This document shows, in pieces, positions 43,345-63,638 of a stretch of 64,000 nucleotides of DNA; within the stretch, counting starts at the first letter, position 1, and the number at the start of each line of letters is the position of its first letter. Origin of the DNA: the human T2T-CHM13v2.0 reference genome, Homo sapiens. Where the stretch lies: the NCBI GenBank assembly GCA_009914755.4, contig CP086569.2, forward strand, positions 8,896,001-8,960,000, in the 5' to 3' direction. A program made the translations under genes and the position numbers. A model generated the notes under the pieces. That model was not told the DNA's origin, did not search any database, and worked only from the letters and a program-made list of their open reading frames with translations.

Positions 43345-43700
43345 TCCCCAGACCTACCATTTCCACAAGGGGCAAATAAGAAAAAGAATTTAACACCCCC
43401 CATATAAAGTACAAACAGTAATCTGAAAAGAACCACAAGGGAAAAAAATTCAAAATTTACAACTATCTACCCTAAAAGAAGCTGAAAGTCCCTCAAAAAC
43501 TTTCTAGAGGCCATGTCCTTCTATTACAAAAATGATCATAAGAACTGCAGGAGTAGAAGAATAAAAATGCATCTTAAAACTTGCTAAACACTTCAAGTCT
43601 CCCATAAGAATTGTAATGGAAAATGGATCAGTCAGCAGTTTTTTCCATACAATTATGAACGAATTATATTTCCTCATACACAGATTTGTTTTTTCAATAT
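43345..43700. repeat. Left edge of an approximately 20.3 kb duplicated unit, matching 63635-64000
   Basis: ttccacaagg...aatttaacacccccc...aatttacaactatctaccctaaaagaagctgaaagtccctcaaaaactttctagaggccatgtccttctattacaaaaatgatcataagaactg...cttcaagtctcccataagaattgtaatggaaaatggatcagtcagcagttttttccatacaattatgaac recurs near-identically at 63655 onward. The offset is about 20,290 bp. Confidence 0.85.
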
Positions 43701-44269
43701 TCTAAGGAATTAACTTTTATACTAATAGTAGGTGATGTAAGAAAGCAGGCCTTTATCAAGATAACTGACACTGGATGTCCATACCATTACTCAGGTGGGC
43801 CTTAATTCCCAGCCGGGTTCCCTCCCTGGACACACACTGAAGGTCCCCAGCCATTTGGCAATCTCTTCACATTCCCAGCCCTGGAGGTAGCCCTAAAATA
43901 CATGTACCTGAAGAAAATAAAACATTGCCTCACACTGGAGCCCAGTGTGGTCCTCCAGATTCCGTGTGAGGTGGACTAACTTATATGGGAAGGCAGGGCA
44001 GCGGGAGTGAGGATGGCAGAGAGGATTACACATGTCAAGGCAGCCGGGGTCATGGAAACAAAACATGACTGGCCTGGGAGAAACACTGTGAAAGGACACA
44101 GACCTAGGTGGGCCTCAGGTGGACATCCTCGTGGAGAAAAAGGGGGCCCTGGTTGATCTCAAAATGAGCCCCAGGTGGTAGCAGGTCTTACCGCAGGGCA
44201 GGGAGCTGGCGAATGATAATGAGACAGCTATCCCTTTAGCCCTGCTTGTCACCCACTGACTTTAGCCAC

Positions 44270-47050
44270 ATATGCATCATAGTGGCTTAAGGGGCCCCGA
44301 TCGTGAAATGTGGGTGTTACATGTCCCTGATGGGTCTCTCTCCCCCAACCCATGGATTGTCTGGGATTGCTCACTGCAGTCTCCTCCAGGATCCTTGGGT
44401 TCTCCATGTGTGGCCCAGATCCAGGTCAAAAGGCCTCTCAGTTCCCAGCGCTTCCCAGCCCTGGGCTGCTCGACTGGCCTCCTCTCTGTTACGCCTCTAA
44501 GGCTGACCCTGTCCCCATGGGATAGAAATGCAATGGATTGAGCCATAGGCCCTGGCTCATGATCTAGGGGACTGCAGAAGTGGGTCCAGGACAGTTCAGG
44601 TGACAGTTTAAAGCCAATTCCCCAGAGACCAAGGAATGACCAGCTAGGTCCTTTCCCATGATGCCCCACGGCAAACACCACCTCCGAACTCGTGCCAAAA
44701 CCCAGGCAGTCATGTTCAGCCAAACAGCTGAATAAGCTCAGGTAGGAGGTGTACTGCCTGCAGCTGGAGGCTTAACCTTCGTGAACCCAGAACCGCTGGA
44801 CTGCAGTGGAATGAGACACCCTGTAGCCTGCAGGGAGAGGAGTCAGGAAGGTTCATGCCAGTTCCACCCTCCCACACACCAGCTCTCCTACCATGCTGGG
44901 AGGCATTCCTTACCGAGGATGCCAACACAGTGCTCCTTCATGATGATTTCACTGTGGAAATAAAGGTTGGGATGAAAGGAAATCATCCTGCCACCGGTAA
45001 CCGGGATGGCTGTGTTCCTCCACCTGCCGGATCAAGGAGAAAGAGGATGGATTCAATGGGACCATCTCAACTAGCTGGGCTGAGGTGGCCTACTTGCTGT
45101 AGTGAGCCATGAGTTTCCCTTTCCCAGCTCTGCCACTGAGACGACCCTGGTCCCAGGGGGACCTCAAACTGACTCAGACACTGGACTCCTCCCACAGACC
45201 CAGGCTCCCCAGCCTGACCTGCAAATCCATCACGTAGCAAAGCAGGACTTCCGCATGCTTTCTGACCCACGCCGACATCTCGTGTGCCAAACAATCTACC
45301 TCTGCGCAAGAACTCTCCAGAGGATTGGGTGGGCAAGCCTCGTGACGCCTTGCAATTTCGCAAGAACACAGACAATGTGGAACAGGGCCATCTCCCAGAC
45401 ATTTGGCCAGTCACCCTTCATTGTTGGCCCTCTATCTCTGTCTGGGGAGGAGGCAACGCCACAACTGTGGTGGTTTTTGGAGTGGGTGGACCCCGGCCAA
45501 GACGGCCTGGGCTGACCAGAGACCGGAGGCAGAAAAAGTGGGCAGGTGGTTGCAGCTGAGGGACGGGAGGGGCGGGGGGTGGTGTGAGGCGGCTGCTTCT
45601 CTGGGTTTCTGAGATGCAGGAGGCCTTTGTGTGCTGGGTGCTGGACATGCTCCGCTGATGTCCGGGTGTGTGGTGTCCTCTTATCCTAGTCTCCCTGAGG
45701 GGTGGGCCTGTCCACCTGAGGGAAGCCTTGTAGTTAGAAGCCACAGCAGGGTCGTGCCTGGCGCTCTCCAAGGGAATTGCGTGGGTCCAGAGGAAGTTAT
45801 ACAGGCTCAGGGCCTACACCCCTTTGAGTGCAGCGCCTGCAGTTGGAAGAATGCGCATCTGCGGAGCTGGTGCCCGCCGTCAGGTGGTCGGCAGCCCCAT
45901 GCGCCGCGAACCCGTCTTAAGCACCTTGTGTTTCTGGGGTGAGCCTGCTGGAAACAGGCACCGAGAGCAGGGGTGGTTCAATGGCTGGTAATGGCATACA
46001 GATTCCCCGTCCTCCAGGGACGTTCCCAGGGAAACGTGTCCTTCGAATTTGGGCTGTGCGCAAAGGGACCTTGGCGCCGCGATTCTCCCTTGTCAGTGCT
46101 GGCCCTGGCTCCCCTTCCCTACCACGTGCTCCCAGGGCTGCTACAAGCGAGCTGCCCTCACAGCTGCGGGAACGTGGCCTCGGCTCCCACGCTGTCCCCC
46201 ATCCCCTGCCTCCTGGCTGACCCCACGCGCCTCCCACCTGGCTCCTCCCCCCAAACAGCCCCCATACCCCGCGAGGCCCGATGACTATCCCCTGCTGCCC
46301 GCCATCCCAAATCGGCAGCCGCAAGGATATGGCTCTGGCTCACAAGGCGGAGATGCTCTGTGGCCTGGGGCATTCACGGAGCCCAGCTCCAAGTGAAGGA
46401 CCTCCAGCGAGTCCATTGACGGCCCCGGTGTGCTCGGTCCAGGGCCAGGCTGTGCCCGCTGGCCCTCCTTCTGCCACCCCACGTCGGGCTCCACCTCAAC
46501 CACCACCTCCACCTCAGCCATGATGTCTTCCACCTTCAGCACCGCCTCCTCTTCCAAGGCCGCCTCCTTGCTCTGTACCCCGGCCGTCCTCTCCAGCATT
46601 GCCTCCAGCCTGAACACGGTTTTCTCCTGGGTGCTCCCACAGACCCTGGGCCTGCGCAGCCCAGCCCAGCCCAGCCCATGCCCCGCACCCGTAGGCTCTG
46701 GGGGCCCGCTCCCCAGCAGACCCGCTCCCTGCAAGACCCACGGGCGTCGCCCTGCTGAGAAACTGGTCCCACACCTACGTGGACCCAGGTTTCCTGAGGA
46801 GCTCCGCTGGACCCGCAGATCCCGCACTGGCCAAAGGGCTCCGGTCCCCAGCAGGCTCAACTGCGCACAGGAGCTCGGGAGCCAGAGGCCCCGGCCCTGG
46901 GCTTGCAGAGCCCCACCAACAGGCACCGCAACCGCTGCTGCGGGTGCGGGAGCCTCTGGGTCGTCAAGGCAGCGCACAACAGCGTGCGCGCAGGCCGACA
47001 ATGGCCAACCCTGGCGGCTGGCCTCTGGTGTGCCCAGGGCATAGGACAAG
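44270..47050 (-). pseudogene. TSPY-like unprocessed pseudogene, copy C, inverted and head-to-head with the TSPY gene; its exon-1-like region keeps a long open frame
   Basis: The minus-strand exon-1-like segment at 46285-47049 gives ...[96 protein letters not shown]. Compare [102 protein letters not shown]. There is no ATG at the homologous start; the frame opens at TTG. The exon-3-like segment near 44930-45005 gives MISFHPNLYFHSEIIMKEHCVGILG. Exon-2-, 4- and 5-like segments lie at 44580-45330. Confidence 0.75.
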
Positions 47051-47672
47051 AGGCCCTTTGGAATGCTCCTTGGAGTACAGCATCCTCAGGGAGGAAGCAT
47101 GGTACTCGGAGCCTCTATTTGCCTCGACCTGTGAGAGTGTGTGCCGGGGCTCTGGCCTCTACAGCAGATCAATTCCACCTCAGCACCGGCAGGCGACTTT
47201 CCTCCCACGTGCCCGCCCCGATCACTTCCCCCAGGACACCCCTGCCGCCCTAGCCCCAGCAACCAGAGAGAGTTCTCTGCATCTGCTGTATTACCTCCGT
47301 ACCATCTACCTGGCCTGCCTAACGAAGAGAGATGTTTCCTGTGTTCATGACACATAGAGATGTTCATGGCTTGCCACACTGAGGATGTCAGGGCACAGGG
47401 CTGCCATGCCCACAATTCCAAAGGCCACGCAGCCCGCGTGTGCCCGGATGCCTAGCTACCCGGCACAAGCTCCAAGGGCTTCTCGGAGGAGGCTTGGGCA
47501 GGGAAGGCGGGGGGTGGGGGGGCTGGAGATGCAGGCCCGCCAGTGGCTGTGCCGCCCAGGGAGACGCCCACCGCCCTCCCATTGACTGGCCACGACGGGA
47601 GGAAGTCGGCCTGGGTGCGGCCCCCCGGCCCTTCGCGCGCAGTCCCTTAGGGGGCGCCTGGAAGCCCGGCGC
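47050..47672. promoter_or_regulatory. CpG-rich intergenic spacer between divergent TSPY-like copy C and TSPY, with a candidate bidirectional promoter (TSPY 5' flank)
   Basis: It is CpG dense (gcccgcgtgtgcccgg, ccttcgcgcgcagtcc, cccggcgcatgcgcc) and lies immediately upstream of the TSPY ATG at 47673. 47050-47450 is homologous in inverted orientation to the 5' flank of copy B. Confidence 0.55.
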
Positions 47673-48158
47673 ATGCGCCCTGAGGGCTCGCTGACCTACT
47701 GGGTGCCAGAGAGGCTGCGGCAGGGTTTCTGTGGCGTGGGTCGGGCAGCACAGGCCTTGGTGTGTGCGAGTGCCAAGGAGGGCACCGCCTTCAGGATGGA
47801 GGCTGTACAGGAGGGGGCGGCCGGGGTGGAGAGTGAGCAGGCGGCTTTGGGGGAGGAGGCGGTGCTGCTGTTGGATGACATAATGGCGGAGGTGGAGGTG
47901 GTGGCGGAGGAGGAGGGCCTCGTGGAGCGGCGGGAGGAGGCCCAGCGGGCACAGCAGGCTGTGCCTGGCCCTGGGCCCATGACCCCAGAGTCTGCACTGG
48001 AGGAGCTGCTGGCCGTTCAGGTGGAGCTGGAGCCGGTTAATGCCCAAGCCAGGAAGGCCTTTTCTCGGCAGCGGGAAAAGATGGAGCGGAGGCGCAAGCC
48101 CCACCTAGACCGCAGAGGCGCCGTCATCCAGAGCGTCCCTGGCTTCTGGGCCAATGTT
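47673..48158 (+). CDS. TSPY: TSPY (testis-specific protein Y-encoded) exon 1 coding part
   Basis: ATG at 47673. It translates to [162 protein letters not shown] (162 aa), with a gtatcc donor. Confidence 0.9.
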
Positions 48159-48765
48159 GTATCCTTCTCAGTGTTTCTTCGGCCTTTCTAGTGGAGAGGT
48201 GCTCTCGGGGAAGTGTAAGTGACCGATGGGCAGCTCGGCGTCGATGTGACTCTTTGGGGAACAAAGGGGAGTTGCCACGGACCAATGTGGCTGTGGAAAG
48301 CCGGAGCAGGCGTGGGTACTATTGTCCTGCATGCGGCAGAGAAACCCTTGGTGATGCCGAGCAGCAGACGTTTGGGGCATCTTTTTGAAGAGCAGAAGCG
48401 AGTTCAGAGCGGAAGAGGTTTTTCAGTGAATGAAGCTATTTTTAAGGGAGTGTGATTGCTGCCCCTTGCTAGTCCGATCTGGGACTGGGCGTCTTCGGCT
48501 ATAAGCAGATTCTGCCACTCCTCAGACACCAGCAAGTCTCTGCAAATCGCGCCTCCCCATGTCAGTGCAGTCAGCCTCAGAATCATACACCCTCTGTGAA
48601 CACAGGAGGCCTTAGTTTACGGGGACGGGGAGGCGAAAGGAGATCATACATGGAAGCAGATCTGAGAAATCCCCTACCCCAGCCTCTGGGTGCTCTTAGG
48701 CCTTCTTCCCTGTTGCTCCTCGCTTTCCCTTCCATCGTGTGTAAAGTCTCTTTGACCTAAATCAG

Positions 48766-48843
48766 ATTGCAAACCACCCCCAGATGTCAGCCCTGATCAC
48801 TGACGAAGATGAAGACATGCTGAGCTACATGGTCAGCCTGGAG
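48766..48843 (+). CDS. TSPY: TSPY exon 2
   Basis: tcag acceptor. It translates to [26 protein letters not shown], with a gtgagg donor. Confidence 0.9.
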
Positions 48844-48971
48844 GTGAGGCCAGGAAGACTGGGGCTGGAGGGTTTAGCGGGGGAGGGTAAGGGAAATAAT
48901 TCATTCCTGTAAGCAAGAGTGAGCACCTCACCCGAAAACCTATCTAAGCTTTCTCCACCTTGTCCTGACAG

Positions 48972-49083
48972 GTGGAAGAAGAGAAGCATCCTGTTCATCT
49001 CTGCAAGATCATGTTGTTCTTTCGGAGTAACCCCTACTTCCAGAATAAAGTGATTACCAAGGAATATCTGGTGAACATCACAG
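48972..49083 (+). CDS. TSPY: TSPY exon 3
   Basis: acag acceptor. It translates to [37 protein letters not shown] plus 1 nt, with a gtgaca donor. Confidence 0.9.
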
Positions 49084-49184
49084 GTGACAGGTGGCTCCCA
49101 GGATGGGTAGTGGAAGGAAGATGGTGGGTGGATCATTGCCAACGGGATCCAGCCCCCTTCCCACAAAAACTCCTGTCTCTGTAG

Positions 49185-49330
49185 AATACAGGGCTTCTCA
49201 TTCCACTCCAATTGAGTGGTATCCGGATTATGAAGTGGAGGCCTATCGCCGCAGACACCACAACAGCAGCCTTAACTTCTTCAACTGGTTCTCTGACCAC
49301 AACTTCGCAGGATCTAACAAGATTGCTGAG
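49185..49330 (+). CDS. TSPY: TSPY exon 4
   Basis: gtag acceptor. It translates to [49 protein letters not shown], with a gtgagt donor. Confidence 0.9.
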
Positions 49331-49436
49331 GTGAGTCCTCACTGGGAAACATGAGGAATGACCCCGTGTGTTCCCAGCTGCTTGGGTCACCTTTCTGAGC
49401 CCTGATGAGGCCTTTCCCGATTGAGTCCCCTGACAG

Positions 49437-49518
49437 ATCCTATGTAAGGACCTGTGGCGCAATCCCCTGCAATACTACAAGAGGATGAAGCCACCTGAAG
49501 AGGGAACAGAGACGTCAG
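49437..49518 (+). CDS. TSPY: TSPY exon 5
   Basis: acag acceptor. It translates to [27 protein letters not shown] plus 1 nt, with a gtgagc donor. Confidence 0.9.
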
Positions 49519-50212
49519 GTGAGCCGTTAGTTGGCACTGGAGCTGTTTGATGCCCAGTATAAGGGGGTTGACACACCTGCCTATTCAGGGAGCCTGGGTG
49601 CTCATTTCAGAAATGTAGAAATTGAGGCTCCTTTCGTACATGTAGAAATTCCTTGAGAGGAAGACAGAGAGTGACAGAATCCAGGACGTTCATGGCATTG
49701 GGCTGAAAAGGCACGTTAGAGACTGCACTGCAAAGCGGGTGATAGCTGTGGAGTCTTAAGCCCAGTGAAGAATCGTCCATTTCCAGAATCAATGAGAAGT
49801 AAAGCTGAAAATCATTCAGTTCAGTCTGTGGCACTTGATTCCACGGCTGTCAACCCCACCGGCAGTCATCCCACCAACCCCATGAGATTGGGCTCCCTGA
49901 ATGTGCGTCCTGGTCATCCTTGCCCCAAACCACAAAGGACTGTTTAGATTGATGGATTTCCTTAAGCTGTTGCCCCATCAGACTTGTGTGTGCTTTTAGG
50001 GCCCAGTGCATCTTGTTAGCTGACTCCCCTCACAGACAATACTGGGAATGGGGCAGGGATTGCGCAGAACAGTTTGTAACACGTGGTAGGAGGAAGTTTA
50101 AGGGATCACAAATGGGGAAGGGATATCCTTTTCTCAGCGGGCCCCACAATTGAAACATTTCAAAGTATGGCTCAGAGAAAATGCGTTTTAACATGAGTTT
50201 GTGTTTCTCTAG

Positions 50213-50235
50213 GGGACTCCCAGTTGTTGAGTTGA
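50213..50235 (+). CDS. TSPY: TSPY exon 6 coding part (GDSQLLS, stop TGA at 50233-50235)
   Basis: tctctag acceptor. It translates to GDSQLLS*. The total CDS is 927 nt, giving 308 aa. Confidence 0.9.
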
Positions 50236-50405
50236 ATATGATGGAGCATCAGATTTTACCTAATACAGCAGAACTCCTAAAAAGTTACAGCCATATGCAG
50301 GACGGCAGTACTCAGCATGGTCTTATGCACAGGAACTAAAGGAAAAAGAGATCGAGTCACAAAAATTCAGGAAGAGGGGGTAAATGTGGATTGTATGGAA
50401 TGAAA

Positions 50406-50411
50406 AATAAA
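50406..50411 (+). promoter_or_regulatory. TSPY: Candidate polyadenylation signal AATAAA for TSPY, about 170 nt after the stop
   Basis: gaaaaataaacattctc. Confidence 0.5.
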
Positions 50412-50432
50412 CATTCTCAAGGATGTGTGACT

Positions 50433-50488
50433 CTGTGTCTGTGTGTGTGTGTGTGTCTTTGTGTTTGTGTGTGTGTGTGTGTGTATGT
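50433..50488. repeat. (GT)n microsatellite
   Basis: gtgtctgtgtgtgtgtgtgtgtctttgtgtttgtgtgtgtgtgtgtgtgt. Confidence 0.9.
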
Positions 50489-53149
50489 TTATCCACTTTA
50501 TTCGGGTGTCATAATGAATTGATCAATCCACGTGCTTTATTCTCTTCATGGAAATAACCAGTCTGCGTTGGAGCTGGGCCTCTAAAGTTGTAGAGTGAAT
50601 GGGTGTGGGATGTGTTGGGATTCTTCCTACAGGACAGAGTGGGAGAGGTAAAAGCAAAAGACAGCTTAGTTGGAGGCTGACTTCGTCCTGTGGAAGCAGA
50701 GATAGTTCAAGGAAAGGGGTTACTGGGTTTCCAGGGCCCAGTTTGCTGGGACCTCCAAAATCCTTCATTTTGGGTATCATCATACACAGTAGCTAAGCAC
50801 AGGATGATGGAAATCTTAAAGTTCGCTTTCGTGTTGAATCCACATGTTCTTTTAAAGGTGAATGCATGATCCTTTTCTGGGACAATCAGCCTCTCAGGAC
50901 TTCTGAAACATCAACGTGAGAAGAAATGGGCATGCAAGGTGTATGGAGGGACTGTGGGAAAGGTGACAGAGGCATGTGGGAAGGCATTCAGCATACGCTT
51001 TTGGTAGAGATGACTAAGGGAAAACAGAAACTTACAGAAGTGAGGGGAAAGGGGGTGGATTAGTGGAATATAAGATTGTTGGAGAATCCATCCATGGACT
51101 CTCTTGTCACTTGATGACCCAGGATATGGACACTCTTGTTGATGTTTACATCTTTAGTTGTTTTAAGCTTTTCTCCAAGATTCTGTGTTAGGTGAGGAGC
51201 CAATAACGTATGTAGCTAACAACAGTACGAGTGCATTTTGTGCTCTTGCAAAGTCTAGTGAGGCTCTATTCTCCCTCGTGATTGGCACTGCAGATTGTAT
51301 CTGGAGCCCAGGGCCCCTAAATTTTCTGTGGCCTCTTCAGCATAGTTTGCCTAAGGTTTAGAACGTAAAGCGAATATAGTTGCGGAATATGTTTTGCAAG
51401 CCTCACACAGGAGGACAAAACATACAGCTTTCATTCGCGAGTGGGAGGCTGCTTCCCAGGAACACGTGTGTCTGCACAAGACAAGGGGTTGCCTCTGTCA
51501 AGGATGGGGCAGGAGGATTTCAGTGTCGGAGGCAGAACTTTCTTTCCTGTTCCCAGATGAAACAGTTCCAACACGAGCATCCATGTTGACCACACGCTAC
51601 TAGAGTGCTAACATTGCTGTCCCGTATAGACTCTGGTCAGCACAGCTTCTGTGAGAAGAGCTATGTTGTTTCAGGGAAGAGGGTTTGACAGTCAAAGTTC
51701 CTGAATCTGTTGTGGTGCCTGCAATATGCATTCTACCCCTCCTGCTCGGTGTCAAAGCAGTTGAGCTTTGAAAATCTATCGCCCGGTTTTGTCCCTGCTC
51801 CTATGCAGACCTCTGAAGCTCTGGAGCGGGAGTCTTGTCCTCCTCTGACTACCGTCCCCCTGACCCACAAACACAGGAGAAACAGGTGTTCTAAGCAAAT
51901 TATTCTGAAAACAGTCGGAACCCTTTGGCCCCCTCAAGCTGCCCTCTATCCTACTGTGTGCATGTCAAAGACACTGTGGTCCAGTACGGTATCCCTATAG
52001 CGGCAATGGGGCAACAGATTGGTGTGTGCACTCTGGGCAACTCAGATTAGGAAACGTCTGGGGACTTGCCTATAACGAGGTCGTCTTAAAACGTGTTTCC
52101 CCAAATTTAAGGCATAGGAAAATGTTGAGGAAAGGGTCTTGCAATGATTTTTCTAGGAGGTAAATAGATAAGAAAATGACCGTAAATAGATGCCAGGGCT
52201 AGTTTTGGAGCTAGCCTGTTTTAAAGTGGTGGTAGGGGAGGAGGTTTTTCCAAGGCAGGTAGCAAACCAGGAACTGTCTACGATGGATGGGCGTGCCATG
52301 GGTTGGTGGCTCAGCCATATTGCCACCCCACGGAGTGGATGCAGCAGACTGGGCTTCTTCCTTGAATCCTACGTGCAATTCAGTCTAGTGATTTCACATG
52401 AGATCCCTTCTTCTGGTATTATCACAGATCGTGCTGAATTATACAGGCTGTGTAATGCTTCTTCCACTGAATATCCGTACACGTGGGCCACAGATGCTAA
52501 GGGCACTGACAAATTTGCACCGTGCCTCAGTAACTCGGAAGCACATCTGTGATTTGTACCGACAGGGACTTGGTGTCTTTTCGTGTTTAAAGTAGCACGT
52601 GTGTGTTTGTGGTTGCGTATGTTTATTTCTCTGTGCGGGTTTGTATATTTTCTCTGACTCCACCTATGTCTCCGTGGTTCCGATATTTTTCCACACTCCC
52701 TGCGGCAATTTGCACATGCCTATCTCTACAACCATTGTAGACTTTGTATCTGTGTCTTTGAACATCTGTCACTCTCTCTCCCTTCCTTTTTTCTTTTCCT
52801 TCCTTTACACCCCTCCTTTCATCCTTCCCTTGCTTCCCCACCACACTCTCTCCATCTGTATCGTCTATGTTTCTATTCTCTATCTGGGTTTACTTTCTAA
52901 TTCTGAATTCAAGGGCATTGAATTGAAAAGAAGCACTCTTCGTACTTTTATGTGTTTTAACTCATTTGGGGAATTTGGCGTGGTATTATTTACAGGGTTC
53001 TCTCTGCCCTTTCTCATTGTTCTCCCCAGCCGGGGCTGTTATTATGTGAAAGCTGGTTTCCTTCATCACATCGCGTAGGCTCTAATGATGTTTCGTTTAT
53101 TTTGATTCTCCTCACACTACATAGTTTTAATTTACCTAATGTGACTGTT

Positions 53150-53455
53150 TTTTTGTTTGTTTTCCGAGAATGGGTCTTACTCTGTCTTCTAGGTTGGACA
53201 GCAGCCCCACGATCTCAGCCCACTGCAGCCCAGGCACCACACACCCATGTGATCCTGTCAACTCAGACTCTCACACACCTGGCAGTACAGGTGCATGCCA
53301 CCCCTCCAAGCTATGTATTAATTAACTAAATACTTACTTTTTGAATGTGGGTCCATGTTGCCCCAGGCTCATCTGGAACTCCTGAGTGCAGGCAATCCTC
53401 CCACCTCAGCTTATCAAAGTGCTGGGATGACAGGTGTGACCCATGGCCCTGCCAT
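53150..53455 (-). mobile_element. Alu element, antisense, diverged
   Basis: gagaatgggtcttactctgtcttctaggttggacagcagccccacgatctcagcccactgcagcc...caaagtgctgggatgacaggtgtgacccatggccctgcc. Confidence 0.8.
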
Positions 53456-53589
53456 GGCTTTGTGTTTTTTGCTTTTTTCTTCCTCCTCCTCACGTCTTGT
53501 TTTGAAACATGCACTGAAGGTTTCAATTCATGGACTATAGCCTCTGTGCCTGGAATTTCTATCTTTCAACTCATCATCAGCATTCATTG

Positions 53590-53745
53590 GGATTTTCATA
53601 TATATATATACCTATATAAGAATACCTATGTACACACATATATACGTATATACATGTATATACGTATATATGCACATTTATATACGTATATACATGTATA
53701 TACGTATATATATACATGTACACATATGTATTTATTTCTCAAGTT
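53590..53745. repeat. Complex TA/TACA-rich tandem minisatellite with a period of about 40 bp
   Basis: atatacgtatatacatgtatatacgtatatatgcacattt followed by atatacgtatatacatgtatatacgtatatatatacatgt. Confidence 0.8.
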
Positions 53746-54229
53746 ACGAAATGGCTTGCATTCTTTCCTGTGTCATGAAAAAGACTTTGCTAGAAAAGAA
53801 AAGCACTGCTTTATAATAAAATATTTTATTTGCATTTATTTTGTTAAGGCATTTTAAAAATTGTATGTTTGTTTAAAAAATGTCATATGAAATGATACAT
53901 ATTTACAACTTAAGGCGTGATGTTCAACAGGTCATATACATTATGCATTGGATACATCCAGCCAATCAACATATGTGTGACCTCACATAGTTGTCATTTT
54001 TGTTGTGAAAAAACTTGACCTGCACTGTATTCGAATATTTTTAGAGAAAGAATATGTTACCACTAGTTATAGTGAGCATGCTGAAGAAAATATTTTAACC
54101 TATTCCTCCTTTATAACTAGAAGTATGAGTTCTTCATCCAGCATCTCGTCAGTGCACCCTCTTCACCGCAGTCATTGGAGTCACTACTTCTGTGAAGTCC
54201 GCTTTTTTGATTTCATATAAGAATGAGAT

Positions 54230-55560
54230 CATGTGCTATTTTCCTTTCTGATACCTGGCTTATGTCACTTAACAGAATGGCATGCACACATTCAGCAGAT
54301 TCCCACACATTCTCACAACTGGCAGGATTTCCTGATTTCTTATTGCAGCGCATATTTCCGTTGCGCATATGCGTTTTTGCCCCATTTTTTAATCCACTTA
54401 TCAATGGAGGGACACTCAGGTTGCTTCCGCATTTTGGCTACAGCAAAAATGTAATGAGTGCAGCAATAATTGCATGGGTGCGCGCACCGCTTCAACATAC
54501 TGATCTGTGTACTGGCGGGCGTGCCCGGGTATTCTGATTTGCTGGATCATATAGTGGGTGGTTCTACTTGTAGATTTCTGAAGGCTGTTTATACTTAAAT
54601 AAGAGCCATAAAGCTTCTTTAATGCCAGCACTAATTTACATTCTCCCCAAAAGTGAGCAGGGAATTCGTTTTCTCTGCCTCCTCACCAGAGATTAGGGTT
54701 TTCTTTTCTTTCTTTTTTTTTTTTGTTTGTTTGTCTTTCGGATAATATGCATTCTGACTGAAGTGAGAAGAAATCTCATTGTGTTTTTGATTTGCATTTT
54801 CGTGATGGATTGGGGATAATGAGGAATTTTTAGTGTGTCTTCTGGGCAACTGTATGTCTCAGTTTCACAAATGAGTCTTCGCAGCCTTCGCCCATTTGTT
54901 TTCATGCTATTGAGTTGTTGGGAGTTCCTTATGTACTGTGACTATTCCCCCATGAACAGATGTATGGTGATCCAATCATTGCTCCCATCCTGTAGGATGC
55001 CCCTTCTGTATGTTGAGTTTTCTATGGTGTGGTGAAGCACTTTAGTTTGATATGATTCCATTCTCTATTTTTGATGGTGTTTACTGTGTTCTTGCAGTCA
55101 CTTTGAGACCATCATTGCACACACGGACGCCATGGAGCTTCTTCCTTGTGATCTCTTCTGCTATTTTTATCGTTTCACATCTGACACTGGAGTTTGGTGA
55201 TAAATAATCCACTTGTAAAATCCTTTGTGTGGCTATTCAGATTTCCCCAACCTAGTTTATAGAAGATACTTGATTTTGCATTGGGCGTTCTTGCTTCTTT
55301 GGGAAAAGGCTGTGAGCTGCAAATGCAGTGACTTAGTTCTGGGCTCCTGTTGTTTTTCCTAAGCTCTAGTCTCTGCTTTTCTGCCAGTGCTATTGTATTT
55401 TGGTACAAAAAGTTTTGTAGTAGTATATCATGAAGTTAGGTAGTGTGGTGGCTCCAGCTTTGTGCTTTTTACTGGATTGCTCTGGGTTTTCAGGATCTTC
55501 TGCCATTTCATAGCAAATTTGGGATTCCCAGATTGTTTTTCTAAGAAGAATGTGTCATTG
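54230..55560 (+). mobile_element. Old L1 (LINE-1) ORF2 3'-region fragment, diverged
   Basis: It is collinear with the L1 consensus. ggacactcaggttgcttccgcattttggctacagcaaaaatgtaatgagtgcagcaataa matches L1 ggacatttaggttgtttccaagtctttgctattgtgaatagtgccgcaataa. tgggcaactgtatgtctcagtttcac...cttcgcccatttgttttcatgctattgag matches ctgttggctgcataaatgtcttcttttgagaagtgtctgttcatatccttcgcccacttttt. Confidence 0.65.
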
Positions 55561-55649
55561 ATATTTTTACAGGGGTTGTATAGAATCTGAGGATGACTCA
55601 GGTAGTAGTGATGTCAATGCCGTTTAGACAATGTGCGTGTTTGTGTGCA

Positions 55650-57100
55650 CAAGCTCAGGGCCAAGAGACACTGGGTGTCCTCACCAATACTGAGGTGGGC
55701 CTTAATATCCAGCCAGATTGCCTTCTGGAAACACACGGAATGTCCTGTTCTGTTTTGCCATCTCTTCACATTTCCTCCCCTGTGAGCCCTGTGTGGTCCT
55801 CCAGATTCCCTGTGCGGTGGCCTGCCTTTTTTGGGGTGGGGAGTTGCTGGGTGAATGAGGATGGCGGAGGGAACCAAGCATGTCAGTGGAGCGTGGTGTC
55901 ATCCAAACGGTACTTAGCAGGCCTGGGAGAGTCATTCTGGGAGGACGCAGACCTAGAGAGGCCTCAGGTGGGCATCTGTGTGGAGGGTGAGAGATCCCTG
56001 GTTGAGCCCAAACTGAACCCCAGGTAGAAGCAAGCCTCAGGACAGGGAAGTAGCTAGCAAGGGATGATGAGGCAGCTATCTCTTGACCCTGGCTTCCCAC
56101 CCATTGACCTTAGCTACTTATGCCTATTAAGCAGATTACGGTTCCCCCATCGTGAAATGTGGGTACCACCGTTCCCTAATGGGCATTTCTCCACCAGCCC
56201 ATGATGGCCTGAGTTTCCTTACTGCAGTCTCCTCCCTGAGCCTTGGCTTCTCTATGTGTGTCCTAACTCCAGGACCCACAGGCCTGTCAACCCCCAGCCC
56301 TGGGCTGCTTCCCTGGCCTCTTCTCTGTTCCCTCTCTGAGGGCCTAACTCCCTTGGGTAGTGCTGCAGAATATAGAGCCACAGGCCCTGGCTGATGATCT
56401 GGTGGACTGGGCAAATTGGTCGTGACAGGTCAGGTTCTGGTTCAAAGCCAATTCCTCCGATGCCAAGGAATGTCGAAGAAGGTCCTTTGCCATGATGCCC
56501 CATAGCTGCCCCACCTCAGCAATCGTGCCGTAACCTGGGCCCTCACAGTCAGACAACCAGCTGAAGAAGCTCAGGCAGTGACCTGCGGGAAACTCGGGCT
56601 TTCACCTGCATGACCCTAGAACCACTGGACTGCAGTGGAGCCAGTCACCCTGTATCCTGGAGGGAGACGAGTCAGGAAGGCGCACGCCAGGCCCAGCTCC
56701 CGAGGTACTACCCCCTCTACTCCTCAGGGAGGATGCCAATGCAATACTCCTTAGTCATCACTTTGTTTCCGAAGTAAATGTTGTGATGAAAGGCAAACTT
56801 CTTCCTACCCCTTGTATTCAGGGTGGCCGAGTTCCTCCACCTGCCTGTCCAAGAAGGAGAAACAGGGCTGTGAAGGGGCAATTTCATCTAGGTGGGCTGA
56901 GGTGGCATTCTAGCCGGGGTGAAGCATGCGTTTCCCCTTCCCAGCTTTCCCGCTGAGACACACCTGAGCCCCAGAAGGACCTCAACCTGACCAGGACCTT
57001 AGCGCCCTCCCCCAGACCCAGGCTTTCCATCCTGACCTGCAAATCCAACATGCAGCTTTGAAGGACTTTCTCATGGTTTCTGAGCTCCTTGCTCTCACCA
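55650..57100 (-). pseudogene. Partial TSPY-like pseudogene, copy D (3' portion only, exon-3- to 5-like plus 3' flank), an intra-unit duplicate of 43780-45250
   Basis: The stretch 55650-55840 matches 43780-43990 (ggtgggccttaat.tcccagcc...tgtggtcctccagattcc.tgtg.ggtgg). The stretch 56630-56850 matches 44800-45030 (ctgcagtgga..cagtcaccctgta.cctg.agggaga.gagtcaggaagg...). The exon-3-like remnant near 56740-56800 is decayed. Confidence 0.65.
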
Positions 57101-59129
57101 GAAAGAATCAGAACTTTTAAAGTGTTCTTTATGCCAACTTAAATTTTTTCATTTTTACTACCTCATGTTTTGGATGAGGCATGTATTTTTAAATTTATTT
57201 TCACCCTTATTGTACCTCTATGATAAACTGCTTGCTTACATTCATACCGTAATTATCTCTCAGGTTACTTGTCTGTTCCTAAAGATTCACTGAAACGAAG
57301 AATTCTATATATGCTTGTATCTTTCAGCAACCGTATGTCAGATAGCACTGCACATTACTGCAGACATCGCATATACAGGTCCAAAGGTAGAGGAAGAAGA
57401 AGAAAGCAAGCGTTAAACTCTATTCATTCCTAAAAGCATATCAGAAACTCACAAATAACAGTGAAATCAAAGAATGATCACAGCCAATTCCATTACATAC
57501 CTAGACTGAAATACGAAACTTCAAAGAAAAGAAACATTAGAACTTTGGGTTTGTAAAAATTTTCCTATATAGATAAAATTATTGGTAACTGTGTCTCACT
57601 AGAAAACGTAAACAAAAATCCATGTTTTTCATATTTGTAAATATACATAGTTTTATTTCCATCAGTTATGACATGCAAGCAAGTAATAAAGTGAAAGTAC
57701 AATCAAATGATATATGGAACTTCCTCAGTCTTAAAATATTCCATGGAGACTATCAATTTTATGAAAACTATAAAGAATGCTTCATGAAACTACATTGTAC
57801 AGTGCCATTTACTATTTTACTGACATTTTAAATAATCAACAATTAAAGGGAATACGTCAACATTATTTAATACCAATAACGTTATTTTTCTTGAGTAATC
57901 CTGTTGAAATTAAGGATTTTAAATAAAACATTAAAAACAAATTATATTGACTGATTTCAGCTTTGGATGAAATCATACTTGTGTATTTGTAGTAATGCGA
58001 AGCATAACTTTCTCCTCACAATTAATCTTTTATAACATCGGTGTTATAGTTTTCTCTGACACCAACATTGTGATATCGCACAGGTTTACTGCATGCATGC
58101 ATTACATGCCTCCAGAGAGTAGGCTTCAAATATATGGAAAAATTATATTTATGAAAAAATTCTAGGAAAGGGAATGGTGAAATGGAAGAGAATTTCTCAC
58201 TTGCTAACTGTTGGACATGGATTTGTATATATTTGGATATAGACACATACTGGCACACTGTGAGTTTGCCCATGTATATATACACTTATATGAGAAACCC
58301 ATAATATATGGGTTGTGTAATCTTTTAATTAATCCATAATTGTATGTGTGTGAAATTAGATAAGCGGTTACCTTTTCTTTACTCAATTTGATGGAAAGCC
58401 AAAAAACTCTGTCCACCTTCATTTCAATTAATCCAATACTGTTAACTGCTGGTAGCTTCATTCTCCTTGTTCTCTTACGGCAACCGGAAAGTTAATTCTC
58501 GCTCTAATTTGGCTTTCAAGGTGCGATCAACAAGAGTGTCACCTTGCTGTGGATTGTGACCTCTGACTCCACCTCTGTCTTCCTTTTGCAGTCCTACCTT
58601 TGCATAGGTAACAAACTTTGTACATGGTTAAAAGGATAAACGTTCAGTGAAATGTCAAGCCATGCTGTGAAATGTTCCATAGTTTCTATATCTCTAATTG
58701 TCCTTTGATGTTATAGAGGCAAGAAAAATAATTCAATGTTTTTCTTAGTATCTAGTCCAATGCACGCTTTCTTCATAATACTGCAAACAAGGCACTGACA
58801 TGGAAACGTGGCTGGACGTCTCAAAATCTCTTCTCATTAATTACCATTATGTTAATCACTGTTGCCCACAACTGGAATTGGACTTTGAAATCCCCTGGTG
58901 GAAATTGCTATAATGGCTCAAACTACTGGAAAGACTATCTTTTTTTTACCTGAAAATATCTGATGAGCATAGACGTATGCTATATACAGGAACATATTGT
59001 ACATTAACAACATACCATCACTGCCACTCAATAATAGGTATCCCAAACCTTTGAGCCAAACTGAGCTCGGGTGCTCCCACAAACCAAGCTTTTCCCTCCA
59101 CAGATTTCTTATGTCAAAAAGCCACAACT

Positions 59130-59445
59130 CCAGGCCAGGCTTCGTGGCTCTTGTTGTAATTTCTACATTTTGGGAGGCCGAGGTTGGTGGGTCACTTGAG
59201 GTCAGGAGTTGGAGACCAGCATGGGCAACATGGCAAAAAGCTGTCTCTACCAAAAATACAAAAATTAGCCAGACCTAGTGGCACTTTCCTGTGGTCCCAG
59301 CTACTTGGGAGGCTGAGGCAGGAGAACCACCTGAACATGGGTGGCAGAGATTGTATAGTAAGCCAAGATCAGACTACTGCACTCCAGCCTGGATGACACA
59401 GCGAGACCATGACTGAAAAAAGAAAAAAAAAAAATAAAGGCAACT
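59130..59445 (+). mobile_element. Alu element
   Basis: ggccaggcttcgtggctc...ttgggaggccgaggttggtgggtcacttgaggtcaggagttggagaccagcatgggcaacatggcaaaaag...gcactccagcctggatgacacagcgagaccatgactg, with a poly-A tail. Confidence 0.9.
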
Positions 59446-59482
59446 CCACTCGTCCACTGGCTTAGGTAAAAAGTACTGGAGT

Positions 59483-59795
59483 TGGCTGGGCTCGGTGGCT
59501 CACACCTGTATTCCCAGCACTTTGGATTTTGGGAAGCTGAGTCGGGCGGGTCACCTGAGATCTGTAGTAGGAGAGCAGCCTGGCCAACATGGTGAAGCCT
59601 GGCTTCTGCTAAAAATACAAAACATTAGCTGAGCGTGGTGATGCATGCTTGTAATCCCAGCTACTGCAGAGGCTGAACCTGGGAGGCGGAGGTTGTGTTG
59701 AGCTGAGATCCTGCCACTGCGCTCCAGCCTGGTCTACAGAGCGAGAGTACCCTGTGAGAAACAAAGGTGAAGAGAACAAGAAAAAAAAAATGAGA
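59483..59795 (+). mobile_element. Alu element
   Basis: ggctgggctcggtggctcacacctgtattcccagcactttgga...gcctggccaacatggtgaagcctggcttctgctaaaaatacaaaacattagctgagcgtggtgatgcatgcttgtaatcccagctactg...gcgctccagcctggtctacagagcgagag. Confidence 0.9.
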
Positions 59796-59869
59796 AAAAT
59801 AAGACCCACTGCAAAAGGTTGCCACAGAAAAGATTAAACATTTCAGCAACTTCTATCTTCTGTCATGGA

Positions 59870-60240
59870 AGCCAAGGTTATTTGGACCAAACCTCCTGTC
59901 TTAGTTCATTTTCACGCTGCTGAAGAAGACATACCTGAAACTGGGAATAAAAGGAGGTTTAATTGGACTGACAGTTCCACATGGCTGTGGAGGCCTCAGA
60001 ATCATGGTATACGAATAAAGGCACTTCTTACATGGCAATGCCAAGAGAGAATGAGGAAGAACCTGAGGCAGAAACCCCTGAAAAACCCATCAGATCCCGT
60101 GAGACTTCTTCACTGTCACAAGAATAGCATGAGAAAGACCGACCCCCATGATTCAATTACCTCCCCCTGGGTCCCACCCGCAACACGAGGGAATTCTGGG
60201 AGATACAATTGAAGCTGAGATTTGAATGGAGACACACCAA
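59870..60240 (+). mobile_element. Fragment of a common human interspersed repeat family (the consensus reads ...gtttaattggact.acagttccacatggctg.ggaggcctcagaatcatgg...gagacttattcact.tcacgagaatagcatg.gaaagac.gcccccatgattcaattacctcccc.tgggtccctcccacaacacg.gggaattctgggagatacaattcaagatgagatttg.gtggggacacagccaaaccat); I cannot name the family with confidence
   Basis: It matches, by memory, a very abundant genomic repeat. The 115-aa ORF at 59865-60212 lies wholly within it. Confidence 0.55.
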
Positions 60241-61696
60241 ACCATGTCACTTCCCAAACAATTAAAAATTCCCAATAGAAGAAGCATTAATTATATCAAA
60301 AAGTGGTGGACCAAGAAGGAACTATTAGCCTCATATCTCAAGAAAGACTCCAGTCAAGGCCTAGGGACTACTCATGAAAAGAGTTTAATAGCCGACTCTC
60401 TCCCAGTGGATCTGGATTCCACCGGACTGTATCTTCACAGTAAGGGTGAAACAGAAGCAAACCCATTCCTATTTCCAAGCTCAAGGAACTTTGGTCAAAG
60501 TTCTCTTGGAGCTGAGCAGAACAAGGAGGCAAACAGAAAAGATTTGTGTCCCTGAGAAGTCATGGCCACAGGCTGGCTATCACACAGATTGTCAAGCCAG
60601 TTCCATATTGCATGGGTATTACAGAAAATCTCAAAACATAAATTTGTGTGTGGGTTGTCCCAGAGTAGCAGGATCTGGCAGAAGGAAATTTCCTTCTAAC
60701 CCTCAAAGAATCCACATAAATCTTGTTACATTTGGGATTTTACGATTTGCTTCAGGAATGAGAATGGCCTTAATTTTCATATCTTTTTCTACACTCAGTT
60801 TATGTCTTGTTGGCGTCAAAGTTCTGCTTGCTTCACACAATGAGTTTAGGATTTTCCCTTTTTTATTCTATAGAATTCTTCATATATATTGAAATGCTCT
60901 GCCTGGGGAAAAAAATCTGAGCCTAGCGTTTTATCTCTAGGAAGAATCCTTTATTTCCTTGGACATTTATGAGACTATACAGATTATATATGTCTTCTTG
61001 TATCAATTTTACTAAGCTATATACATAGCTTATGTTTATATATTATATATATAAATGTAAGATACAAATATAAAAATTATGTATAAATATGAAAATATAT
61101 ATAGAAAGCGATATATATGTCTATATATAGAGACAGATTATAAATATCTGTCTATTTGATCTAAGTTTTCAAATTTGTAGGTTAAGGTGTTAACGATATT
61201 TCCTTATTAGCTTCTTAATCTATGCTGTATCTATGGTTGTGTACCTTTTAAATTCTTAGTTTTATCTATGTTTTCTCCCTTTTTTTCTAAACTTGACTGA
61301 CGGTTGCATCATTTATTATATTTCTCCAACAAGCAAAGGTTAGCTTTGTATGTTTTACTAATTTTGTCTACATCATTATTCCCACACTTTAGTTTTTCAG
61401 AATTGATTCTGTTGTTTCTTTTCTAATTCTTTATTGAAATATCTAGTACATTAATTTTCAAGTTATTAGAGAAATATTTGTCTGTAAACTCCTATTGTAA
61501 TATCACTTTTCTTGCTACTCACAGATTTAATCTTTAATATTGGCGGTATCATTGAGTTCTAAGTACATTTCAATTCCTAGTATGATAATCTATGAATTGC
61601 TGAGAAATAGTGTTTACAATTTTGTTGTTCTATTTCCACTTAAGTTTATTTTTACTTCTGCTAACTCAATTGAAAATTCTTTACTAATTTTTAAAA

Positions 61697-61812
61697 TCCT
61701 TGAACCCAAGAGATGGAGGTTGCAGTGAGCTGAGATCAGGCCACTGCATTCCAGACTGAGTGACAGAGTGGAACGAGATTTCAAAACAAAACAAAACAAA
61801 ACAAAACAAAAC
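61697..61812 (+). mobile_element. Alu 3' fragment with an (AAAAC)n tail
   Basis: ccttgaacccaagagatggaggttgcagtgagctgagatcaggccactgcattccagactgagtgacagagtggaacgagatttcaaaacaaaacaaaacaaaacaaaac. Confidence 0.85.
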
Positions 61813-63369
61813 AGTCACTGGAAAGATAATAAAATACATAAATGTGGGATGTAATATGTAATCGTGATAAAATAAACTGGATTTTTTGTATAAGTTATAC
61901 ATATAAATGTAATGCCAAGACACTGATAAGACAACTCATGGTCTTATCTCAATACTTAGTGTCTTCATGTAACATATGTCCTTTAGGATAGTTATAGTCC
62001 GTTTTCTTTCCAGGAGAGACAGATGAGAATGCAGAAATGTTAAAGTGCAAGGGACGGAAGCTTCCAGCTGTGCCCACCTGTAACCTGACGTAGACAGTTC
62101 CACCGTTTGCTTCATTAATCATGCCAAAGGCTCTAATGCAAATGTGGTACAGAGTCACATGTTTTTGTATCTACATGATAGAAACTATAACTTCATCCCT
62201 ATATAGAAGGGTATATAGCATATGCCTCAGTGATAAATATAAGTGAATCATTGATCAGTAGGAAACCATTTTAAAAGTCTTTCATAACAGAACAAAATCC
62301 CTGAGAACATTTTCTTCTCAATCTCTGAGTTTTCTTACACGGCTTATGAATCTCTAGCCATACTAAAGAGATAGTATGCTGCTCTTCCCACAAATTATTC
62401 ATTGTATATAATTCCTGTAATCTAATAACAGTACCTTTACACCTCAGGGTTTAAAATGACTCCAACCTTTTTCTGTTTCTCCAATTAAAATAACTTTTTT
62501 AAGGTTTAATCTTCAGTAATTTTTTGTAGTAATATTTTTGAAGGTATTTGACCAGGATGATTTGCTTATATACCTACCTGACGTCTCCCTTTCTTCTGAA
62601 TACATATTTTATTACCCACCTATTAGATCTAAGTTTAAGAAGTTGGAATAGGGATTTAAATCTAAATTCTACATTTGAATTTACAGGAGTCAGCGAGTCC
62701 AGGAAGTGCCTTTATGCACAGACCAATATCTGGCAATGGCACTAGGGGACAAATAAGCTTTACCAGTCTCAAAGCCCTGGCTACTACAGTGAATCCACCC
62801 TTCTCCTGGATCTTATCTACTTCAGCAAAAGAAGGCCACCCACTAAACCAGGCCCTTGTACTTTGGGTGGAAACTCCTAAGTCCTCTAGTCTCCTCAAAC
62901 AGACAGCCAGGCTGCCAATTTCCACAATAATAATTTCTATAGCACTGAGTCTTTGGTAGCCTTGTAACTATAGCTACTGATGCTACAGTCTGGTCCCTGT
63001 ATGATAAAACACCAGAGCAACAGAAACAAAAATATTGACTGAAGCCTTCTAAAATCTCTCTAAATATACCTTCAATAAATATGGTTTTTTTTACAGAACG
63101 ACTGCTTTCAGCTTCCTGAACTAACGCTTGGCCTTCGCTAGTTGTCACTGTTGAAATTGATTCAAAAGTGTACATTTAACATGAAAGTCAACACAGAATT
63201 TCATGTGTCAGCAACTAAAATTTTCAAAATGTTGCAAAATACAAATGTGAAACTGTATTTGTGAAATTTACCATTCATTGAAATTATATTTTCATACCTA
63301 CCCAGGCACAGAATTTTTTATAACTGTCTGCATGTTCTCCTCATGTGGGGGAAAAACAGCATCAGCAGG

Positions 63370-63470
63370 CAGAGGAATCCTTTGAAGCTGGAGGGAGAGG
63401 TTGCAGTGATCTGAGAGTTTGCCACTTGACTGCAGCCTGGATGACACAGTGAGACTCCAACTGAAAAGAA
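63370..63470 (+). mobile_element. Alu 3' fragment
   Basis: ggagggagaggttgcagtgatctgagagtttgccacttgactgcagcctggatgacacagtgagactccaactgaaaag. Confidence 0.75.
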
Positions 63471-63471
63471 A

Positions 63472-63474
<3 letters not shown>

Positions 63475-63520
<46 letters not shown>
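63475..63520. repeat. (AC)n microsatellite
   Basis: acacacacac... Confidence 0.9.
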
Positions 63521-63522
<2 letters not shown>

Positions 63523-63589
63523 CCCCAAAATTGATAAGTAAAAAAAAAATCCGTATTCGAAAACATGCTCACAGGCTAACTCCCATATC

Positions 63590-63592
<3 letters not shown>

Positions 63593-63636
<44 letters not shown>
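63593..63636. repeat. (CA)n microsatellite
   Basis: cacacacaca... Confidence 0.9.

Positions 63637-63638
<2 letters not shown>

What the first reader, a model, noticed from the sequence alone, without database searches (positions are those of the whole stretch)
47673..50235. Intact six-exon TSPY gene (308 aa) with all splice sites canonical
The exons splice with conserved phases: 47673-48158, 48766-48843, 48972-49083, 49185-49330, 49437-49518 and 50213-50235. The product is [15 protein letters not shown]...EGTETSGDSQLLS, 308 aa. This matches the length and, by my memory, nearly the whole sequence of human TSPY1. All donors are GT and all acceptors are AG. An AATAAA lies about 170 nt after the stop. 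This is the only clearly functional protein-coding gene in the window. Which array member it is (TSPY1, 2, 3, 4, 8 or 10) cannot be resolved. One residue, W at position 10, differs from what I remember as R.
Basis: partly seen in the sequence, partly recalled or inferred. Interest (0 to 1): 0.5.

Follow-up and report, generated by a model that had tools for sequence, protein, structure and literature searches.

The report
Intact human TSPY gene, array-edge copy
This is an ordinary, intact copy of the well-known human Y-chromosome testis gene TSPY, sitting in the first repeat unit at one edge of the long-described 20.3-kb TSPY tandem array, and its protein is letter-for-letter one already on record as TSPY8.

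Summary
The six listed exons join into 927 nt in frame, giving 308 aa plus TGA. Every intron is GT..AG, and AATAAA lies 170 nt after the stop, followed by a GT-rich tract.

The same exon coordinates, transferred to GRCh38 TSPY3 and TSPY10, reproduce their curated protein exactly. The window's product, including W10, is identical to human TSPY8 (NP_001409007.1). It differs from TSPY3/TSPY10 at one residue (R10W, a CGG>TGG change at a CpG). It differs from TSPY1 at three residues (R10W, P109L, G190E) and from TSPY2 at three.

It can be partly resolved:
- Homology to the 20.3-kb array unit starts abruptly at 43361.
- The next unit starts at 63655, a period of 20,294 bp.
- No unit lies upstream, so this is the 5'-most gene of the array.
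- Divergence from reference units is 3-7% at the boundary and about 0.1-0.2% across the promoter and gene, as expected for an edge unit of a homogenised array.

The protein carries a NAP/SET domain (closest solved structure: SET) and lacks an acidic tail. Published work says TSPY binds cyclin B and stimulates cyclin B-CDK1 in male germ cells.

The gene, array and protein are all already described. Interest is low.

The parts
47673..48158 (+). TSPY exon 1, coding part (ATG at 47673; aa 1-162). It encodes the TSPY-specific N-terminal region and the start of the NAP/SET domain.
   Evidence: 486 nt, donor GT; the same coordinates in GRCh38 TSPY3/TSPY10 give the recorded protein; tblastn 98.8% over aa 1-164.
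47700..47700 (+). T in place of C (codon 10, CGG>TGG, a CpG transition). This gives W10 instead of R10 and is the only amino-acid difference from TSPY3/TSPY10.
   Evidence: nucleotide differences from L001 and L002; protein alignment.
47760..48020 (+). Optional 261-nt intron inside exon 1 (GT..AG). Removing it gives a 221-aa product like TSPY1 isoform 3.
   Evidence: splicing it out gives 221 aa that differ from NP_001307893.1 (P0004) only at W10 and at E103 in place of G, the same site as the G190E difference from TSPY1.
48766..48843 (+). TSPY exon 2 (78 nt)
48972..49083 (+). TSPY exon 3 (112 nt)
49185..49330 (+). TSPY exon 4 (146 nt). It carries one synonymous difference from TSPY3 at 49243.
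49437..49518 (+). TSPY exon 5 (82 nt)
50213..50235 (+). TSPY exon 6, coding part, ending in TGA (50233-50235)
50406..50411 (+). AATAAA poly(A) signal 170 nt after the stop, followed by a GT-rich tract (about 50425-50490)
46000..48500 (.). G+C- and CpG-rich promoter/exon 1 region (GC 0.57-0.71, CpG observed/expected 0.41-0.69). It includes a G-quadruplex-type motif at 47496-47522 (+). The region is almost identical to the TSPY10 unit.
   Evidence: 4 mismatches in 46000-46499, then 1 per 500 nt across 46500-48499.
43361..63654 (+). First (edge) unit of the TSPY tandem array, 20,294 bp. Homology to array units begins abruptly at 43361.
   Evidence: 98.4-98.8% to GRCh38 units L001/L002 from 43361 on; nothing comparable upstream. 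(63655 aligns with 43361). (divergence gradient).
63655..64000 (+). Start of the second array unit, counted in the phase set by the boundary. It runs off the window.
   Evidence: window 57969-64000 is 99.6% identical to the 6 kb upstream of the corresponding point in the TSPY3 unit.
44522..46671 (-). Degenerate TSPY-like relic inside the unit, head-to-head with the intact gene. Its exon-1-like piece (46354-46671) is 50% identical to aa 18-129. The exon 3-5-like pieces contain stops.

Best explanation
[quoted passage not shown] It lies in the 5'-most unit of the ~20.3-kb TSPY tandem array on Yp. Its 308-aa product equals the protein recorded as TSPY8.

Shown here:
- The exon/intron structure, the open frame and the poly(A) signal.
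- A promoter region nearly identical to reference copies.
- Exact protein identity to a recorded human TSPY.
- A NAP/SET domain over roughly aa 105-288.
- No C-terminal acidic tract.
- The position at the array boundary, with sequence divergence falling from the boundary inward.

Taken from published work on TSPY, not tested here: the gene is transcribed in male germ cells. The protein is modelled on the SET dimer through its NAP/SET fold. It binds B-type cyclins and, because it lacks the inhibitory acidic tail of TSPX and SET, it stimulates cyclin B-CDK1 kinase activity. This promotes spermatogonial proliferation and the meiotic divisions. [quoted passage not shown]

Inferred: the near-identity of the gene body to internal copies, against a diverged unit edge, reflects homogenisation by unequal exchange or gene conversion that fades at the array boundary. 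W10 is a copy-specific variant in the non-conserved N-terminal tail and is unlikely to affect the fold.
For: -: 927 nt, 308 aa, all introns GT..AG, AATAAA 170 nt after the stop.
- the product is identical to P0002 = 'testis-specific Y-encoded protein 8 [Homo sapiens]' (NP_001409007.1, KAI3998643.1).
- 1 difference from TSPY3/TSPY10, 3 from TSPY1, 3 from TSPY2.
- the same exon coordinates on GRCh38 TSPY3 (L001) and TSPY10 (L002) yield their recorded protein exactly. The gene span has 3 and 6 substitutions respectively in 2,563 nt, with no indels.
- Pfam NAP, 70.4 bits against a cut-off of 28.6.
- human SET (2e50, 7mto), E about 1e-37, over aa 105-288.
- array homology starts at 43361, the period is 20,294 bp, and there is no unit upstream.
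- mismatches per 500 nt fall from 14-18 (43.5-45 kb) to 0-3 across the promoter and gene.
- Literature: a 2.8-kb, 6-exon unit in 20.3-kb repeats, isoforms of 156-308 aa, cyclin B binding and CDK1 stimulation (PMC6498724). T2T-Y has 44 coding copies in units of ~20.2 kb (10.1101/2022.12.01.518724). The unit consensus is 20,284 bp, with gene conversion and purging of pseudogenes (10.1101/2022.12.01.518658).
Against: - Nothing in the sequence argues against an intact gene.
- Expression of this particular copy was not tested; no transcript data are available in these tools.
- The start codon context is weak (C at -3, C at +4) and the exon 1 donor is weak, but among the gene-span positions compared these are the same in TSPY3 and TSPY10.
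- In GRCh37/38 the gene labelled TSPY8 is the second annotated copy, with TSPY4 about 20 kb upstream. This copy is the first, so the name and the position do not match the older reference. The W10 protein is recorded only on a 62,460,029-bp contig, the length I recall for T2T-Y.
- The gene-position index holds no entry for the W10 protein, so I could not place the window in a named assembly.
Confidence: 0.96

Rival explanations
1. The copy is structurally intact but transcriptionally silent or weaker than internal copies. As the edge unit it keeps only 4.3 kb of array sequence upstream of the ATG and adjoins diverged flanking DNA.
For: Array homology starts at 43361, 4.3 kb upstream of the ATG, and the first 2 kb are 3-7% diverged. 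Copy-specific expression was not testable.
Against: Between 46500 and 48500, covering the promoter and exon 1, there is about 1 mismatch per 500 nt against the TSPY10 unit. The ORF, splice sites and poly(A) signal are intact. From memory, about 2.4 kb of TSPY upstream sequence is enough for germ-cell expression in transgenic mice; the study is cited as reference 25 of PMC6498724, seen, and I did not read it.
Confidence: 0.12
2. It is the isolated TSPY2 copy, or a dispersed TSPY copy, and not a member of the tandem array.
For: Only one intact TSPY gene lies in 64 kb. Taken alone, that could suggest a single copy.
Against: A second array unit begins downstream in register. Window 57969-64000 is 99.6% identical to the 6 kb preceding the corresponding point in the TSPY3 unit, and 63655 aligns with 43361, a period of 20,294 bp. 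The next gene would start near 67.97 kb, beyond the window. The protein differs from TSPY2 at three residues, W10R, F19S and P195R.
Confidence: 0.03
3. It is a TSPY orthologue from a non-human ape, or a different NAP-family gene (TSPYL or TSPX).
For: Ape TSPY proteins fall in the same 90% cluster.
Against: The protein is 100% identical to a human protein. The gene DNA is 99.8-99.9% identical to GRCh38 TSPY10 and TSPY3, with no indels. The listed ape entries are 264-290 aa. The product has no C-terminal acidic domain as TSPX has; it ends ...[17 protein letters not shown].
Confidence: 0.01

Closest known systems
Human TSPY8 (NP_001409007.1 / KAI3998643.1), seen on a 62,460,029-bp chrY contig
   Same: The 308-aa protein is identical, including W10.
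   Different: Nothing at the protein level. In GRCh37/38 the gene called TSPY8 is the second annotated copy, whereas this copy is the first unit. Member names are labels tied to a reference assembly in an array that varies in copy number between men.
Human TSPY3 and TSPY10 (GRCh38 chrY 9,398,467 and 9,527,926; P0001)
   Same: The exon coordinates are the same. The gene span has 3 and 6 substitutions in 2,563 nt with no indels. The 20.3-kb unit is the same.
   Different: R10 in place of W10. These are internal or opposite-end units. The unit edge here (43361-45500) is about 3% diverged from them.
Human TSPY1 (Q01534, NP_003299.2)
   Same: Both are 308 aa with the same exon structure, 99% identical.
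   Different: Three residues: R10W, P109L and G190E, written as TSPY1 to this copy.
SET/TAF-I beta (PDB 2E50) and TSPX/TSPYL2
   Same: They share the NAP/SET domain (aa 105-288; E about 1e-37 to SET) and, according to the literature, cyclin B binding (PMC6498724).
   Different: TSPY lacks the C-terminal acidic domain that makes SET and TSPX inhibit cyclin B-CDK1. TSPY also has its own N-terminal region, encoded by exon 1.

Membership tests
Human TSPY gene family (Yp tandem array) | Protein sequence identical or nearly identical to recorded human TSPY proteins | tested here: met
   100% identity to TSPY8 (P0002); 99.7% to TSPY3/TSPY10; 99% to TSPY1 and TSPY2.
Human TSPY gene family (Yp tandem array) | Six-exon transcription unit of about 2.8 kb with the reference splice junctions | tested here: met
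   The same coordinates on GRCh38 TSPY3/TSPY10 reproduce the recorded protein. The literature describes 6 exons in 2.8 kb (PMC6498724).
Human TSPY gene family (Yp tandem array) | Embedded in a tandem repeat unit of ~20.3 kb, one gene per unit | tested here: met
   Period 20,294 bp between 43361 and 63655. Identity to GRCh38 units is 98.4-99.6%. The published consensus is 20,284 bp.
Human TSPY gene family (Yp tandem array) | Germ-cell/testis-specific expression | not testable with these tools
   No transcript data were available. The promoter is nearly identical to reference copies.
NAP/SET family (Pfam PF00956) | NAP domain above the curated threshold | tested here: met
   70.4 bits against a gathering score of 28.6, E = 1.9e-19.
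NAP/SET family (Pfam PF00956) | Sequence relationship to solved NAP-fold structures across the whole domain | tested here: met
   SET (7mto, 2e50) E about 1e-37 to 1e-38 over aa 105-288. NRP1, NRP2, Vps75 and NAP1 also match. I ran no structure prediction.
NAP/SET family (Pfam PF00956) | Histone-chaperone or cyclin B-binding activity | not testable with these tools
   Literature only (PMC6498724).
TSPX/TSPYL2-type (considered and rejected) | Long C-terminal acidic domain encoded by extra 3' exons | tested here: not met
   The product ends ...[22 protein letters not shown] with a stop in exon 6. There is no acidic tract.

The most novel reading that the evidence does not exclude
W10 (T at 47700) may be a stable marker of the array's 5'-edge unit. 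That unit partly escapes homogenisation at its outer 2 kb, while its promoter and gene body are kept almost identical to internal copies by conversion or selection. If so, the variant would allow copy-specific tracking of expression and of conversion tracts at the boundary of the largest protein-coding tandem array on the Y. A further, weaker possibility is that the head-to-head TSPY relic about 1 kb upstream in every unit contributes divergent or antisense transcription from the shared CpG-rich promoter.
Probability: 0.2. Interest if true: 0.2.

Novelty: already known. Interest (0 to 1): 0.07.

Why it matters
It matters little as a discovery. TSPY, its 20.3-kb array, its copy-number variation and its exact protein sequences, including this W10 form, are already in the public record and in complete Y assemblies.

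The useful outcome is a clean annotation. The window spans the 5' boundary of the TSPY array. It holds one intact gene, the start of the next unit, and several old TSPY relics.

Tried and rejected
1. Placing the window in a named assembly. The gene-position index has no entry for the W10 protein (P0002), for the W10/Q144 294-aa form (P0003) or for P0012. Only GRCh38 TSPY3 and TSPY10 could be fetched. The assembly and exact coordinates therefore remain unassigned.

2. My first reading was wrong. The tool listed the two queried proteins in the opposite order to my query, and I briefly assigned W10 to TSPY3/TSPY10. The alignment and the sequences show that W10 = P0002 = TSPY8 and R10 = P0001 = TSPY3/TSPY10.

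3. Looking for other genes. Ten other long ORFs (159-289 aa, from the 31 ORFs of at least 120 aa) have no Pfam family. The other TSPY-like matches are degenerate.

4. A literature search for FAM197Y/CYorf16 gave nothing useful about its position in the unit, and I dropped it.

5. I deliberately did not run the large protein-database searches or a structure prediction. Exact identity to a recorded protein, together with the SET match, already settles the question.

6. One paper search failed on term syntax and was repeated.

Full report
**Observation**

I read window 47000-50800 and joined the six listed exons. Their lengths are 486, 78, 112, 146, 82 and 23 nt, 927 nt in total. Intron phases are 0, 0, 1, 0, 1. 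The translation is 308 aa ([10 protein letters not shown]...GDSQLLS) followed by TGA at 50233-50235. All five donors are GT. All five acceptors are AG and follow pyrimidine-rich tracts. AATAAA lies at 50406-50411, 170 nt after the stop, and a GT-rich tract follows it. Every factual statement in the finding holds.

**Identity of the product**

An exact-sequence look-up found the product in the public protein collection. The tool listed my two queries in swapped order. The alignment and the sequences themselves settle which is which.
- The W10 protein is P0002, 'testis-specific Y-encoded protein 8 [Homo sapiens]' (NP_001409007.1, KAI3998643.1). It is recorded on a contig of 62,460,029 bp, which from memory is the length of the T2T-Y chromosome.

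The window's product differs as follows:

| Compared with | Differences |
|---|---|
| TSPY3/TSPY10 | 1 residue (R10W) |
| TSPY1 (Q01534) | 3 residues (R10W, P109L, G190E) |
| TSPY2 | 3 residues (positions 10, 19 and 195) |

W10 also occurs in a second recorded product, P0003 (XP_054184379.1), which in addition has Q144.

**Independent check of the exon model**

The R10 protein is encoded at two GRCh38 chrY loci, fetched as L001 (TSPY3, gene from 9,398,467) and L002 (TSPY10, gene from 9,527,926). Applying the window's exon coordinates to these loci, shifted by a constant, gives their recorded protein exactly.

Across the 2,563-nt gene span there are no indels. There are 3 substitutions against TSPY3 and 6 against TSPY10. 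Against TSPY3 these are C>T at 47700 (CGG>TGG at a CpG, giving R10W), one intronic change, and one synonymous change in exon 4. There is no frameshift and no lost splice site, and the best match is TSPY itself.

**Protein family**

Pfam NAP (PF00956) scores 70.4 bits against a cut-off of 28.6. The closest solved structures are human SET (7mto, 2e50; E about 1e-37 to 1e-38) over aa 105-288, followed by plant NRP1/NRP2, Vps75 and NAP1. The product ends ...[17 protein letters not shown] and has no acidic tail.

**Genomic setting**

Only one intact TSPY lies in the window. That seems odd for a 20-kb tandem array until the flanks are compared.
- Window 43361-57562 matches the GRCh38 units at 98.4-98.8%.
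- Window 57969-64000 matches the 6 kb that precede the corresponding point in the TSPY3 unit at 99.6%.
- Upstream of 43361 there are only old, inverted, 75-79% identical pieces (35213-38645 and 9619-11027).

Within the window, 63655 aligns with 43361, which gives a period of 20,294 bp. Published figures are a 20,284-bp consensus (10.1101/2022.12.01.518658) and about 20.2 kb (10.1101/2022.12.01.518724). The window therefore spans the 5' boundary of the array, and this gene is its first member. The next gene would begin near 67.97 kb, outside the window.

Divergence is graded.
- The first 346 nt of the unit are only 92.5% identical to the next unit.
- Against the TSPY10 unit there are 14-18 mismatches per 500 nt at 43.5-45 kb.
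- From 46.5 kb through the promoter and gene there are 0-3 mismatches per 500 nt.

This is the expected picture for an edge unit of an array homogenised by unequal exchange and gene conversion. The 43-assembly Y-chromosome study reports conversion and purging of pseudogenes in this array.

**Naming caveat**

In GRCh37/38 coordinates TSPY4 lies about 20 kb upstream of TSPY8 (table in PMC4460274; the GRCh38 coordinates are from my memory). The copy here has no unit upstream. The W10 protein is recorded on the 62.46-Mb contig and not on the GRCh38 contig. The window therefore most likely comes from T2T-Y or a similar complete assembly, where the label TSPY8 was assigned by annotation transfer. 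I could not confirm this, because the position index has no entry for P0002, P0003 or P0012.

**How it works**

Shown here:
- An intact coding unit and a poly(A) signal.
- A CpG-rich promoter/exon 1 region (GC up to 0.71, CpG observed/expected 0.41-0.69) that is nearly identical to reference copies.
- A NAP/SET domain without an acidic tail.

From the literature (PMC6498724):
- TSPY is a 2.8-kb, six-exon unit in 20.3-kb repeats, with isoforms of 156-308 aa.
- It is expressed in male germ cells.
- It binds B-type cyclins and stimulates cyclin B-CDK1. TSPX and SET inhibit that kinase through their acidic C-termini.

Inferred: W10 lies in the N-terminal tail encoded by exon 1, outside the NAP/SET domain, and should not disturb the fold.

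The optional 261-nt intron inside exon 1 (47760-48020, GT..AG) is also intact. Splicing it out gives a 221-aa product like TSPY1 isoform 3.

**Rest of the window**

Degenerate TSPY-like relics with in-frame stops lie at four places:
- 13016-14812 (+)
- 35907-37916 (+)
- 46671 to 44522 (-), inside the unit and head-to-head with the gene
- 56791 to 56464 (-), inside the unit

Ten other long ORFs have no Pfam family. One reservation remains: I did not examine the FAM197Y/CYorf16 unit that, from memory, is reported in each repeat (one search gave nothing useful).

**Verdict**

The gene, the array and this exact protein are already known. The added value is the assignment of W10 to a recorded TSPY8 protein and the placement of this copy at the array's 5' edge. 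Interest is low.

Noticed in passing
window 44522-46671 (-): Each array unit appears to carry a degenerate TSPY-like relic head-to-head with the intact gene. Its exon-1-like piece (46354-46671) is 50% identical to TSPY aa 18-129 and starts about 1 kb upstream of the ATG, within the same G+C-rich region. The exon 3-5-like pieces carry stops. I did not establish whether this corresponds to an annotated pseudogene or to the FAM197Y/CYorf16 transcript.
   Followed up: partly
window 35213-38645, with TSPY-like pieces at 35907-37916 (+): Just outside the array lies an old partial copy of the unit's upstream part, in inverted orientation and 75% identical. It contains a TSPY pseudogene relic with stops. 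Together with the relic inside unit 1 it forms a diverged inverted pair flanking the array boundary at 43361.
   Followed up: partly
window 13016-14812 (+) and 9619-11194 (-): Further out there is a still more diverged TSPY-like relic (34% identical to aa 27-160, with a stop). Next to it is a 78-80% identical inverted copy of another part of the array unit.
   Followed up: no
window 56464-56791 (-): A second short TSPY-like relic (exon 3-5-like, 41-60% identical over short pieces) lies inside the array unit, downstream of the intact gene.
   Followed up: no
window 43361-45500 versus 46000-57000: There is a sharp divergence gradient within the edge unit. It is 7.5% diverged from the next unit in the first 346 nt, about 3% up to 45.5 kb, and about 0.2% after that. 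This fits homogenisation that fades at the array boundary.
   Followed up: yes
window 47496-47522 (+): A G-quadruplex-type motif (GGGCAGGGAAGGCGGGGGGTGGGGGGG) lies about 150 nt upstream of the ATG, and C-rich equivalents lie at 46247-47257. The T2T-Y preprint mentions a G4 peak about 500 bases upstream of every TSPY copy.
   Followed up: no
window 47673 and 47796: The annotated start codon has a weak context (C at -3, C at +4). The next in-frame ATG (M42, caggATGg) has a strong one. Leaky scanning to M42 is conceivable but was not tested.
   Followed up: no
window 50425-50490: An imperfect (TG)n microsatellite lies directly after the poly(A) signal. It may serve as the GU-rich downstream element, and it could vary in length between copies.
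   Followed up: no
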